A stretch of 64,000 bases of DNA from Escherichia coli O157:H7 (GCF_013167455.1 NZ_CP038328.1); one strand, 5' to 3'. Positions 36,001 through 39,000 are shown, counted from the first letter of the stretch. Numbers: made by a program.

Positions 36001-39000
36001 TGTTTGTCATCACGTTTATCGGTCGTCCCGGCAACGCGGTTAAGAGATTCTTGATCTGCCCAGTCATAACGACCGCCCAGGGTGACCAGCACTTTATCCC
36101 ACTGCGCCTGATCCTGAACATAAACGCCCGTTTGTTTCTGCTTATTCAGAATGCGGTAAGGGCCGGAGTTTGCCGGATCTTTGGCATTGAAGTCGAAATC
36201 GGTATTCACCGGATTGTACAGATCGAGCAGCGGTACGGAGTCGTCGTAACCAAACCAGGCGTTGATGTCATTACGCATACGCATAAAGTCGACACCGGTC
36301 AGCAGGGTGTGGTCGATATCGCCAGTGGCAAACTTGCTCTGCAACTGGGTATCAACGGAGAAGTTTTGCAGCTTCTCATCATCAACGACGTATTTACGTG
36401 CCAGATAATGGCCTTTATCCGCTGGCGCTAATGCCGCACACTGTTTGCTGTAAGCATTCGCCGGATCGGAGCAGACGCCGTAACCATAAACGCTGTTTTG
36501 CGAGGTTTTGTTTTCAGCAAAGCGCAGGTTCTGACGCACAGTAAAGGTGTCGTTAAATTCGTGATCGAAGCTGTAGCCCACCATCTTCTCATTACGAGAA
36601 TAGGTGTTGTTCTTCGCCCCTTCGTTAAAGTCTGTCGGCAGACGCTTACCGTTCGGCAGCGGCTCAACGGTTCCCTCTTTCGGCAACCAGCCGTAATAAC
36701 CGGTTTCCGGCTCGTTCTGGAAGTAAGAAAGGAAGGTGAAATTGGTTTTATCATCCGGACGCCAGGTGAACGCCGGTGCAATAGCATAACGCTGCTCTTC
36801 TGACCCTTTCTGCTGGGCATTGGCAGAACGCGCAAGACCGGTCAGGCGATAAGAGTAAACGCCGTCATCATCCAGCGCATCGCTAAAGTCAAAACCAGTC
36901 TGGAACAGGCTGTCAGTACCGGCTTTAAACTGAACTTCTTTCAGCGGTTCGGTGGTCGGACGCTTGCTGACCATATTCAACAGGCCGCCAGGACTGCTTT
37001 TACCGTAAAGCACGGAAACCGGGCCACGCATAATTTCAGCGCGTTCCAGCATATACGGATCAATGACCGCATCGTTATAGAAGTTGCCCTGCAACTTCAG
37101 GCCATTCAGATAGTTATTCTGGCTTTGGCCTTCTGCCGCAAAACCGCGAATGATCAGGTGGTCATAGGTGTTGGATGCGCCACGCGTACCAACAGAGACA
37201 CCCGGCGTGTAGCTAAGCGCTTCTTTTACCGACTTCGGCTGATGCAGCGCCATCTCTTCGGCGGTCACAACAGAAATAGACTGTGGCACTTTTTGAATCG
37301 GCGTATCGGTTTTAGTGCCGGTAGCTGACTGTCGCGCCGCAATAGTTGCAGCAGGCCCCCATGCGCTTTCTTGCGGCGCAGGTGCAGCGGTAACGGTGAT
37401 AGTGTCTTCTTTCGGTTCAACCGCTGCCTGTGCATAAACAGACATGCCGCTAACCGCTGTGGCTACTACAACTGCGATTTTACGCAGTGAGTGTTTTGGC
37501 TGAGCAGTTTTGGAACGCGCCATTGGTATATCTCTGATGTAAAGTGAATGATAACGTAAACGAGAATGATTATTATAAAGATAAGATAATATTCGAAACT
37601 CTGGCGGGTTCGCAAGCGGTACGCAATCTGAGCGTTCCTGAAGGGTTAATAAACAACCAGATGAAAAGAAAGGGTTAATACTTTGGGTGGGATGTTATTT
37701 TACCGGATGGCAACTCGCCATCCGGTATTTCACGCTTAGATGTTAATTACTACCAAACATATCCTTAATCCAACCGGCTACACCGTCGCTGTCTTTCTGC
37801 TCTTGCTGAGCAGGTTGCTGTTGCGGCTGTTGCTGCGGCTGAGAAGACTGATCAAACGGATTGCCTGACGGCTGCTGCTGCATCTCACTCTGCTGGCACA
37901 GCGATTGCGGATCGCTGGTCCAGACCGGCAAGACACGCATGCCACCGCTGCAAACAAAGTTGCCGTCGTAGTCCACGCCCATATCTGCAATATCTTCTGG
38001 CGGAACAAGATTCAGCGGCGTTGGCGTCTGGTTAGCCAGATAACGCTGATAAATCGACATTGCCCCGCTGGCTCCATACAGTTTGGTCGGCTGGTTGTTA
38101 TCACGGCCGACCCAGGTGATGGTCACCGTGCTGCCGTCAATGCCCGCAAACCAGGTATCTACGTTATTGTTGGTAGTCCCTGTTTTCCCTGCCAGATGCA
38201 GGTTCGGGTATTTCGCCCCAAGCTGACGACCCGTACCGCGTTGTACCACCTGCTGCATGGTCCATAGTGTCAGATACGCCGCCTGCGCCGGAACAGCGCG
38301 TTCCGCCTGCGGGAAGCTCTGATACAGCACTTTGCCATCTTCCGCGATTACCGAACGCAGCGCAGAAAGCGGTGCACGGTTACCACCGCTGGCGATGGTC
38401 TGGAATGCCTGCGCCACTTCGATTGGCGTTAAGTTCAACGCCCCCAGCAGCATTGCCGGAACCGGATGCAACTGATCTTTCGGTACGCCCAGTTTAATCC
38501 AGGTATCCGTAACCGCAGGCAGCCCCAGCGCCATCCCCAGATTTACCGTCGGCACGTTCATCGAACGGGTCAACGCATCCACCAGCATCACTCTGCCGCT
38601 TTCGCTATAACGACGGTCATCATTCTGCGGTGACCAGACCTGGCCATTCGGCTGACGCAGCGCAATTGGCGCATCCGCAATCCACGTATTCAGACGATAG
38701 ATTTTCGGCTGGCTTAAGGCCGTCAGATAAGTCGCTGGTTTTGCAAGGGAACCAATCGAACGACGCGCCTGCATCGCACGGTTGTAGCCCGCAAACTGCG
38801 GCTCAGAACCTCCGACCATCGCACGAACTTCACCACTAAAGCGGTCGACGACCACAATCGCAGTTTCAAGATCGCTCAACTTACGCTGTTTCTTCAGTGC
38901 CGGAATACCTTCCACGGCGGCTTTTTCTGCCGCGTCCTGGGCCACCGAGTCAAAGGTAGTGAAGATCTTCACGCCGGAGAGATCTTTTACCTTATCGCCT

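What the first reader, a model, noticed from the sequence alone, without database searches (positions are those of the whole stretch)
37524..37742. fhuA upstream region with Fur-box-like A/T repeats
The 219-bp region between mrcB and fhuA contains ATAATAATCATTCTC and GATAAGATAAT near the presumed -35/-10, consistent with iron-responsive Fur repression of the fhuACDB operon.
Basis: partly seen in the sequence, partly recalled or inferred. Interest (0 to 1): 0.2.

Follow-up and report, generated by a model that had tools for sequence, protein, structure and literature searches.

The report
Known Fur-repressed fhuA promoter
The stretch between mrcB and fhuA is the already well-studied iron-regulated promoter of the E. 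coli ferrichrome uptake operon; it carries a real, strongly conserved Fur repressor site, so the finding is correct but ordinary.

Summary
The window is E. coli O157:H7. Its mrcB-fhuA spacer (37524-37742, genes on the minus strand) is identical to strain Sakai. Both quoted strings exist, on opposite strands.

ATAATAATCATTCTC is the core of a real Fur site, 37559-37577. A matrix built here from 16 experimentally verified K-12 Fur sites, with fhuA left out, scores it 20.3 bits. That is the best hit in the 64 kb window, against 0.005 expected by chance.

A Fur site of 13-22 bits sits 43-49 nt upstream of the fhuA ATG in all 77 Enterobacterales loci examined. Published work already shows Fur gel shift, ChIP-exo occupancy in Sakai itself, and derepression in fur mutants.

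GATAAGATAAT is not a separate Fur site. Its ATAAT part belongs to the conserved -10 hexamer TATTAT, and the rest varies outside Escherichia.

Published start-site maps put +1 at 37579, using promoter TTGCGA-18 bp-TATTAT. The Fur site therefore covers +3 to +21, not the -35/-10.

The invariant block just downstream (37545-37559) and an upstream element (37662-37676) match published Salmonella HypT footprints.

Verdict: observation confirmed, interpretation supported, already known, low interest.

The parts
35280..37523 (-). fhuA coding sequence (ferrichrome outer-membrane transporter), first gene of fhuACDB. fhuC is 34432-35271 and fhuD is 33542-34435.
   Evidence: NCBIfam equivalog NF007465, 1473.7 bits. 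FhuC and FhuD equivalogs lie downstream. RefSeq annotation of an identical O157 genome agrees.
37743..40292 (-). mrcB (PBP1b), the upstream gene. Its stop codon is at 37743-37745.
   Evidence: NCBIfam NF007061, 1735 bits. RefSeq annotation. mrcB-fhuA synteny is seen in at least 63 of 77 related loci.
37701..37727 (-). Perfect 11-bp stem with a 5-nt loop, 16 nt after the mrcB stop. It is probably the mrcB 3'-end hairpin. It is followed by AAAATAA, not by a U-tract.
   Evidence: Inverted repeat I1. Folding gives -20.9 kcal/mol, z = -4.5. The terminator scan did not call it. Other genera carry canonical GC-hairpin plus T-run terminators at this place. Published long-read transcripts from the mrcB start contain only mrcB.
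37662..37676 (-). AACCCTTTCTTTTCA, the counterpart of the distal HypT footprint of Salmonella (AACCCTTCCTTTTCA). It lies at -97..-83 from the mapped start site.
   Evidence: 14 of 15 identical to the footprinted sequence quoted in PMC6397515. It overlaps copy 1 of the direct repeat.
37641..37680 (-). Two exact copies of TATTAACCCTT (37680..37670 and 37651..37641), 29 bp apart.
   Evidence: Repeat family D1. TTAAyCCyT-like motifs recur at fixed distances (-62 and -33) from the -35 CTTGC in many genera. 36 of 62 spacers have at least 2 hits to the loose pattern. The function of the second copy is unknown.
37610..37615 (-). -35 hexamer TTGCGA (TTGCTA in most other genera).
   Evidence: Promoter scan: TTGCGA-18-TATTAT. 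CTTGC is at least 90% identical across 58 non-Escherichia spacers.
37586..37591 (-). -10 hexamer TATTAT.
   Evidence: Promoter scan. 80-99% conserved across genera. It sits at -12..-7 from the mapped start site.
37579..37579 (-). Transcription start site of fhuACDB, carried over from K-12 position 167428.
   Evidence: Cappable-seq TSS at 167428, score 31.4. SMRT-Cappable-seq transcripts for fhuA, fhuAC and fhuACD start at 167427, probably the same base in 0-based numbering. K. pneumoniae 5'RACE-seq places the fhuA TSS behind the homologous CTTGCC...TATTAT, with a 55-nt 5'UTR.
37559..37577 (-). Main Fur site TATAATAAT C ATTCTCGTT, centred at 37568, 45 nt upstream of the ATG. It spans +3..+21.
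   Evidence: 20.3 bits with a matrix of 16 other verified sites, top hit of the window. It is the same site as the 19.5-bit, gel-shifted fhuA site at -45 in Chen et al. 2007. It is present in all 77 related loci.
37565..37583 (-). Weak overlapping Fur site, 6 bp upstream of the main one (centre 37574). It spans -4..+15.
   Evidence: 6.5 bits. This agrees with the 3-site, 31-bp cluster reported by Chen et al. 2007 and the 10.7-bit second site in PMC1807945.
37545..37559 (-). TTACGTTATCATTCA, identical to the proximal HypT footprint of Salmonella. It forms the downstream end of the invariant 33-bp block 37544-37576 (37544 is the one base of that block beyond this feature).
   Evidence: 15 of 15 identical to the sequence in PMC6397515. 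42 of 62 spacers have 0 mismatches and 14 have 1. It is not a Fur matrix site, with scores below zero.
37524..37579 (-). 56-nt A/U-rich, unstructured 5'UTR. It contains a conserved TCAGAGA Shine-Dalgarno-like block at 37531-37537.
   Evidence: Folding z-score -0.12. No Rfam match. CAGAGA is conserved.

Best explanation
The spacer carries the sigma-70 promoter of fhuACDB: -35 TTGCGA at 37615-37610, an 18-bp spacer, -10 TATTAT at 37591-37586, and +1 at 37579. Its Fur operator is a strong 19-bp site at 37559-37577 (+3..+21) with a weak overlapping site 6 bp upstream (-4..+15). When iron is plentiful, Fe2+-Fur dimers occupy this cluster. Because it covers the start point and the early transcribed region, which RNA polymerase must contact, occupancy prevents open-complex formation or promoter escape. 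When iron is scarce Fur leaves and the operon is transcribed. Shown here: the site's score, its rank in the window, and its conservation and fixed position across genera. Taken from papers: the start site, Fur binding in vitro and in vivo, and Fur-dependent expression. Inferred: the steric mechanism. The same promoter also carries two sequences that match published HypT (hypochlorite-sensing LysR regulator) footprints, so it is probably a two-repressor promoter.
For: Matrix test. 16 verified K-12 Fur sites were recovered at the coordinates of Chen et al. 2007. The matrix built without fhuA gives 20.3 bits at 37559-37577. Leave-one-out scores of the true sites range 17.4-28.7. It is the best of all window positions. 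Expected by chance: 0.005 per 64 kb.

Matrix validation. The second-best hit (16244-16262, 18.2 bits) coincides with another published Fur ChIP-exo peak.

Conservation. All 77 loci from Escherichia to Hafnia and Ewingella have a 13-22 bit site centred 43-49 nt before the ATG. 16 of 19 positions are at least 90% identical in non-Escherichia spacers. The promoter core is present in 5420 of 5426 complete E. coli genomes. It is intact where the upstream DNA has been replaced.

Literature.
- Gel shift of the fhuA site.
- Fur ChIP-exo peaks in K-12, W3110 and O157:H7 Sakai under iron-replete conditions.
- The Sakai spacer is identical to the window.
- fhuA rises in fur deletion strains: log2 1.09 in MG1655 and 5.0 in W3110. 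By my reading of the column order of the supplement, about 1.4 in Sakai.
- A fhuA-lacZ fusion is Fur-dependent.
- Start site.
Against: - The classical 19-bp consensus GATAATGATAATCATTATC matches only 14 of 19 by my alignment, and no hit with 3 or fewer mismatches was found.
- The published ChIP-exo peak summits (window 37540-37552) lie about 22 bp downstream of the matrix centre. They overlap the HypT-type block rather than the 19-mer.
- No DNase footprint of Fur on fhuA was found in the papers read.
- The start site is carried over from K-12 grown without iron limitation, and it is a T, which is unusual.
- Fold derepression in Sakai is modest.
Confidence: 0.95

Rival explanations
1. Fur represses the promoter, but the active promoter is the one drawn in earlier work and implied by the first reader. 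In that reading the -10 is TATAAT at 37577-37572 and the start is near 37565, so the Fur box overlaps the -10 hexamer itself. A variant uses the predicted -10 TATCAT at 37553-37548.
For: A perfect TATAAT lies inside the Fur site. Jo et al. 2019 numbered their footprints from a start at this position. Shultzaberger et al. predicted a promoter with its -10 29 nt before the ATG. A conserved GTTTCG at 37599-37594 could serve as a weak -35.
Against: The start used by Jo et al. comes from a computational promoter paper (ref. 32). Cappable-seq lists no start at K-12 16743x-16746x, only 167428 and a minor 167477. The K. pneumoniae experimental start uses the homologous TATTAT promoter. The -35 for TATAAT would need a 15-16 bp spacer and matches TTGACA poorly. 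CTTGC and TATTAT are conserved although they lie outside any Fur site.
Confidence: 0.12
2. The A/T-rich match is a by-product of promoter composition. The conservation reflects other functions, such as the HypT operator, the initial transcribed sequence or the 5'UTR, rather than Fur binding.
For: The region is 77% A+T. The invariant block extends 15 bp beyond the Fur site and matches a HypT footprint. ChIP-exo summits sit over that extension.
Against: Even with a 77% A+T background the score is expected 7e-4 times per 60 bp. The exact 19-mer was gel-shifted by purified Fur. Expression rises in fur mutants. The variation between genera keeps or improves the Fur score (ATTCTC to ATTATC, 16.9-22.2 bits).
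Confidence: 0.02
3. GATAAGATAAT (37581-37591) is a second, independent Fur-binding element that extends the operator over the -10, as a run of GATAAT-like hexamers.
For: Read on the plus strand by eye, in phase from 37551, the hexamers are GATAAC, GTAAAC, GAGAAT, GATTAT, TATAAA, GATAAG. Each matches GATAAT at 3-5 of 6 positions (sequence). Fur is known to spread along such arrays (established knowledge, hexamer model of Escolar et al.). Chen et al. report a 3-site cluster.
Against: All 19-mers centred at 37580-37591 score below zero. The CTTATC stretch is 0-20% conserved outside Escherichia, while the ATAAT part is explained by the -10 hexamer. The 31-bp cluster of Chen et al. fits 37553-37583, which excludes most of the string.
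Confidence: 0.15

Closest known systems
Fur operator of the E. coli K-12 fhuACDB promoter (Chen et al. 2007, PMC2189734; Shultzaberger et al. 2007, PMC1807945)
   Same: Same locus. The promoter, Fur site and 5'UTR are identical. The spacer differs from K-12 at 5 of 219 bases: four far upstream and one in the promoter spacer at -21. The strongest site has the same centre (-45 from the ATG) and essentially the same score (19.5 vs 20.3 bits).
   Different: Nothing functional. This is the O157:H7 allele. The promoter assignment I favour (TTGCGA/TATTAT, +1 at 37579) differs from the predicted promoters drawn in those papers.
Other Fur-repressed TonB-dependent receptor promoters (fepA-fes, cirA, fecA, fiu, fhuE)
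   Same: A 9-1-9 inverted-repeat Fur site of about 20 bits, in a cluster with 6-bp-spaced weaker sites that overlaps core promoter elements.
   Different: Here the strong site lies just downstream of +1 rather than over the -35/-10. This holds only if the Cappable-seq start is the one used under derepression.
HypT (YjiE) operator of the Salmonella Typhimurium fhuA promoter (Jo et al. 2019, PMC6397515)
   Same: Both footprinted sequences are present at the same relative positions. The proximal one is 15/15 identical and the distal one 14/15.
   Different: HypT binding has not been shown for E. coli O157 DNA. The positions in that paper are numbered from a computationally predicted start site. 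From the mapped start the sites are +21..+35 and -97..-83.

Membership tests
Fur box (Fe2+-Fur operator, Enterobacteria) | Sequence scores within the range of experimentally verified Fur sites on a position weight matrix | tested here: met
   20.3 bits against a leave-one-out range of 17.4-28.7 for 16 verified sites. fhuA was excluded from the matrix.
Fur box (Fe2+-Fur operator, Enterobacteria) | Score exceeds chance for the sequence searched | tested here: met
   Rank 1 of 64 kb. Expected 0.005 per window and 2e-4 per spacer with spacer composition. The 7-1-7 consensus with up to 3 mismatches also hits 37561-37575.
Fur box (Fe2+-Fur operator, Enterobacteria) | Overlaps the promoter or start site of the regulated gene | tested here: met
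   The site spans +3..+21 and the weak site -4..+15, relative to the start mapped in K-12. It would also overlap the alternative predicted promoters.
Fur box (Fe2+-Fur operator, Enterobacteria) | Conserved in orthologous promoters | tested here: met
   77 of 77 loci have a 13-22 bit site 43-49 nt before the ATG.
Fur box (Fe2+-Fur operator, Enterobacteria) | Bound by Fur in vitro and in vivo | not testable with these tools
   Literature only: gel shift and ChIP-exo in K-12, W3110 and Sakai. Summits are offset about 22 bp from the matrix centre.
Fur box (Fe2+-Fur operator, Enterobacteria) | Expression of the gene depends on Fur and iron | not testable with these tools
   Literature only: fur-deletion RNA-seq in nine strains (fhuA up in eight) and fhuA-lacZ fusions.
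Classical 19-bp Fur consensus GATAATGATAATCATTATC | Close match to the consensus string | tested here: inconclusive
   14 of 19 by my alignment at 37580..37562. No hit with 3 or fewer mismatches anywhere in the window. Verified Fur sites often match no better, so this does not exclude membership.
Sigma-70 promoter | -35 and -10 hexamers at 16-18 bp spacing, with a mapped start 6-8 nt after the -10 | tested here: met
   TTGCGA-18-TATTAT, 9 of 12. The published start is 7 nt after the -10. Both hexamers are conserved. The homologous start is used in K. pneumoniae.
HypT (LysR-type) operator | Presence of the two footprinted sequences at corresponding positions | tested here: met
   15/15 and 14/15 identity, about 100 bp apart.
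HypT (LysR-type) operator | HypT binding and HOCl-dependent repression in this organism | not testable with these tools
   Shown only for Salmonella in PMC6397515.
Intrinsic (Rho-independent) terminator, for the hairpin 37701-37727 | G+C-rich stem-loop | tested here: met
   11-bp perfect stem, -20.9 kcal/mol, z = -4.5.
Intrinsic (Rho-independent) terminator, for the hairpin 37701-37727 | U-tract directly after the stem | tested here: not met
   On the mrcB strand it is followed by AAAAUAAC. It was not called by the terminator scan.

The most novel reading that the evidence does not exclude
The fhuA control region may be a composite operator conserved across Enterobacterales. In this reading Fur acts just downstream of the true start site (+3..+21) rather than over the -10 drawn in the literature. 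The abutting invariant block and the positionally fixed upstream TTAACCCTT repeats would form a HypT, or still unidentified, looping system. The second repeat copy (-72..-62) and the conserved GTTTCG in the promoter spacer (-20..-15) would be binding elements that nobody has described.
Probability: 0.2. Interest if true: 0.3.

Novelty: already known. Interest (0 to 1): 0.08.

Why it matters
Little new is at stake. Fur control of fhuA has been textbook material since the 1980s, and this exact site has been gel-shifted and mapped by ChIP-exo, including in O157:H7 Sakai.

The modest added value is a cleaned-up map of the region. It gives the experimentally supported start site and promoter, the position of the Fur site relative to them, the explanation of the extra invariant block by the HypT footprint, and two small conserved elements with no assigned function.

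FhuA is also the receptor for phages T1, T5 and phi80, colicin M and albomycin (established knowledge). Its regulation therefore bears on phage and antibiotic susceptibility.

Tried and rejected
- Rfam scan of 37300-38000 at permissive E-value: only chance-level hits. No RNA element.
- Folding of the 5'UTR plus the start of the coding region: z = -0.12. The invariant block is therefore not an RNA structure.
- Classical 19-bp consensus with up to 3 mismatches: no hit. Replaced by a matrix test.
- GATAAGATAAT as a second Fur dimer site: rejected by negative matrix scores and lack of conservation.
- Promoters with -10 TATAAT (37577-37572) or TATCAT (37553-37548): no published start site supports them, and one rests on a computational prediction.
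- Plus-strand promoter-like match at 37548-37576: no antisense start listed in Cappable-seq for 16741x-16746x. Treated as the mirror image of the A/T-rich operator.
- Hairpin 37701-37727 as a canonical terminator: no U-tract.
- By-eye comparison of the TTAACCCTT repeats with recalled motifs of PhoP, ArcA, IscR type 2, CpxR, the marbox and sigma-E: none convincing. Not pursued.
- Supplement of Chen et al. 2007 (oligo sequences) and Seo et al. 2014: not held.
- The V. cholerae PfhuA expression-vector paper concerns a different promoter and was set aside.

Full report
**What the locus is.**
The window matches E. coli O157:H7 genomes at 100% over the flagged stretch. The 219-bp spacer is identical to that of strain Sakai.

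All genes here run on the minus strand. In order they are hrpB (40473-42947), mrcB (37743-40292), fhuA (35280-37523), fhuC (34432-35271) and fhuD (33542-34435). Each matches its NCBIfam equivalog far above cut-off and agrees with RefSeq annotation.

**The observation.**
Both strings are there.
- ATAATAATCATTCTC lies on the fhuA-sense (minus) strand at 37576..37562.
- GATAAGATAAT lies on the plus strand at 37581-37591.

**Matrix test.**
No Fur matrix was supplied, so I rebuilt one.
- Chen et al. 2007 (PMC2189734) list the centre coordinates of footprinted or gel-shifted Fur sites in K-12.
- I fetched 16 of them from NC_000913.3, excluding fhuA, and corrected coordinates using the annotated gene starts.
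- All 16 line up as AATGATAAT-N-ATTATCATT.
- The palindromic matrix made from them carries 20.7 bits.

It scores the window 19-mer 37559-37577 (TATAATAATCATTCTCGTT on the minus strand, centre 37568) at 20.3 bits. Leave-one-out scores of the true sites run from 17.4 to 28.7. This is the best position in the whole 64 kb.

| Background | Expected hits at this score |
|---|---|
| Window composition | 0.005 per 64 kb; 1.7e-5 per 219 bp |
| Spacer composition | 2e-4 per 219 bp |
| 77% A+T | 7e-4 per 60 bp |

(All.)

Further points from the same test:
- The 7-1-7 consensus with up to 3 mismatches hits the same place.
- The classical 19-mer consensus does not. It matches 14 of 19 by my alignment.
- A weak overlapping site sits 6 bp upstream (centre 37574, 6.5 bits).
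- Centres 37571 and 37562 score about 1 bit.
- This pattern fits the "3 sites, 31 bp, strongest 19.5 bits at -45" reported for fhuA.

The matrix is predictive inside this window. Its second hit, 16244-16262 at 18.2 bits, lies in the divergent rpsB/map spacer. It falls on another published Fur ChIP-exo peak (Sakai P10, K-12 P5).

**The second string.**
All 19-mers centred between 37580 and 37591 score below zero. Across 58 non-Escherichia spacers the CTTATC stretch is 0-20% conserved, apart from one position at about 80%. The TATTAT next to it is 80-99% conserved.

TATTAT is the -10 hexamer (see below). So GATAAGATAAT is mostly a promoter element plus Escherichia-specific filler, not a second Fur box. 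A hexamer-array reading, with GATAAT-like units in phase from 37551 to 37586, remains possible for Escherichia only. I give it low weight.

**Conservation.**
A scan of one genome per species for FhuA relatives returned 78 loci.
- In all 77 usable ones the best Fur site in the 260 bp upstream scores 13-22 bits.
- In every case it is centred 43-49 nt before the ATG.
- mrcB lies upstream in at least 63 of them.

Alignment shows discrete conserved blocks on the fhuA strand:
- CTTGC (37616-37612)
- GTTTCG (37599-37594)
- TATTAT (37591-37586)
- an almost invariant 33-bp block, ATAATAATnATTCTCGTTTACGTTATCATTCAC (37576-37544)
- TCAGAGA before the ATG

Within E. coli the 97-bp core occurs in 5420 of 5426 complete genomes, at 95% identity or more in 5353. 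In 573 of the 5421 genomes that match, less than 80% of the spacer is covered. In the two such genomes examined, a fimbrial gene rather than mrcB lies upstream of fhuA. Everything upstream of the -35 has diverged in them, yet the promoter, the Fur site and the downstream block are intact.

**Promoter and start site.**
The simple scan finds TTGCGA-18-TATTAT on the minus strand.

Published Cappable-seq lists a K-12 start at 167428 (score 31.4) and a minor one at 167477. Nothing else is listed between 167410 and 167469. SMRT-Cappable-seq has fhuA, fhuAC and fhuACD transcripts all starting at 167427, probably the same base in 0-based numbering. Transcripts from the mrcB start contain mrcB only.

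K-12 167428 corresponds to window 37579, seven bases after TATTAT. In K. pneumoniae, 5'RACE-seq places the fhuA start behind the homologous CTTGCC...TATTAT, with a 55-nt leader.

Two other promoters appear in the literature:
- One has its -10 29 nt before the ATG (prediction).
- The other uses the perfect TATAAT at 37577-37572, with a start at 37565. Jo et al. 2019 numbered from it, but it traces back to a computational paper.

I found no mapped start for either. Relative to +1 = 37579, the main Fur site covers +3..+21 and the weak one -4..+15.

**Published evidence for Fur action.**
- *Binding in vitro.* Purified Fur shifts an oligo carrying the fhuA site.
- *Occupancy in vivo.* Fur ChIP-exo peaks under iron-replete conditions lie in this spacer in K-12 (167456-167466), W3110 and Sakai (171778-171790; fhuA ATG at 171807).
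- *Expression.* fhuA rises in fur deletions in eight of nine strains. log2 is 1.09 in MG1655 and 5.0 in W3110. By my reading of the column order it is about 1.4 in Sakai. fhuA-lacZ is Fur-dependent, more so anaerobically.

One loose end remains. The ChIP-exo summits map to window 37540-37552, about 22 bp downstream of the matrix centre.

**What else is in the spacer.**
- *HypT footprints.* The part of the invariant block beyond the Fur 19-mer, TTACGTTATCATTCA (37559..37545), is identical to the proximal DNase I footprint of the hypochlorite sensor HypT on the Salmonella fhuA promoter. The distal footprint, AACCCTTCCTTTTCA, has a 14/15 counterpart at 37676..37662. This explains conservation that Fur alone does not.
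- *Direct repeat.* The distal element is part of an exact repeat, TATTAACCCTT, at 37680-37670 and 37651-37641. Both copies keep fixed distances from the -35 in many genera. The second copy has no reported function.
- *5'UTR.* It is unstructured and matches no Rfam family.
- *mrcB hairpin.* After mrcB comes a strong hairpin (37701-37727, -20.9 kcal/mol, z = -4.5) with no U-tract. Other genera have canonical terminators at that place.

**Mechanism.**
Fe2+-Fur occupies the cluster at about 37553-37583. That cluster lies across the start point and the first 20 transcribed bases, within the DNA that RNA polymerase must hold in the open complex. Occupancy therefore blocks initiation or escape, and iron limitation releases it.

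Binding and Fur-dependence are shown in the literature. The site's quality and conservation are shown here. The steric step is inferred from positions. HypT probably adds a second, oxidant-triggered repression by bridging the two flanking sites, as proposed for Salmonella. That is untested in E. coli.

**Verdict.**
The feature is already known, and interest is low.

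Noticed in passing
window 16244-16262: Second strong Fur-matrix hit of the window: 18.2 bits, ATTCAGAATGATTCTCAAT. 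It lies in the divergent spacer between rpsB (minus strand) and map (plus strand, ATG at 16337). It coincides with published iron-replete Fur ChIP-exo peaks (Sakai P10 193075-193087, K-12 P5). A Fur site at a methionine aminopeptidase / ribosomal protein S2 promoter region is less expected than at fhuA.
   Followed up: partly
window 37641-37680: Exact direct repeat TATTAACCCTT x2, 29 bp apart, at -101..-91 and -72..-62 from the fhuA start. Similar motifs sit at the same distances from the -35 in many genera. Copy 1 overlaps the counterpart of the distal HypT footprint of Salmonella. Copy 2 has no reported function.
   Followed up: partly
window 37594-37599: GTTTCG inside the promoter spacer (-20..-15) is 80-99% conserved across genera, although promoter spacers are usually free to vary. 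It is not an extended -10. No explanation found.
   Followed up: no
window 37701-37727: Perfect 11-bp hairpin after the mrcB stop with no U-tract (A-tract instead). Citrobacter, Kosakonia, Leclercia and others carry canonical intrinsic terminators at this position. Salmonella and a Citrobacter locus (L021, L038) carry what look by eye like REP-type GCCGGATAAG...CATCCGGC elements.
   Followed up: partly
L004 1-241 and L005 1-1362 (E. coli strains 4/0 and WL297): In 573 of the 5421 complete E. coli genomes with a match, less than 80% of the spacer is covered. In the two examined, fimbrial genes (fimbrial protein, usher) sit directly upstream of fhuA in place of mrcB. Homology to the window resumes 160 or 76 bp before the ATG. 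The promoter and Fur box are unchanged.
   Followed up: partly
window 37540-37552: Published Fur ChIP-exo summits in K-12, W3110 and Sakai all fall here, about 22 bp downstream of the best Fur site. The spot lies on a half-site-like repeat: AAAGTGAATGAT at 37541-37552 against AACGAGAATGAT at 37559-37570, 18 bp apart. It also overlaps the HypT-type block. The offset is unexplained.
   Followed up: partly
window 25976-25994, 28564-28582 and 37739-37757: Weaker Fur-matrix hits. One of 12.2 bits lies across the mtn start codon (dgt/mtn divergent region). One of 9.2 bits lies in the clcA-erpA spacer, erpA being an Fe-S cluster carrier. One of 9.8 bits lies across the mrcB stop codon, next to a K-12 ChIP-exo peak at the mrcB 3' end. 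At these scores 0.6-1.8 hits per window are expected by chance.
   Followed up: no
window 37600: This is the only O157-versus-K-12 difference inside the fhuA promoter: A in O157, C in K-12, at -21 in the spacer next to the conserved GTTTCG. The other four differences are at 37681-37687, far upstream.
   Followed up: no
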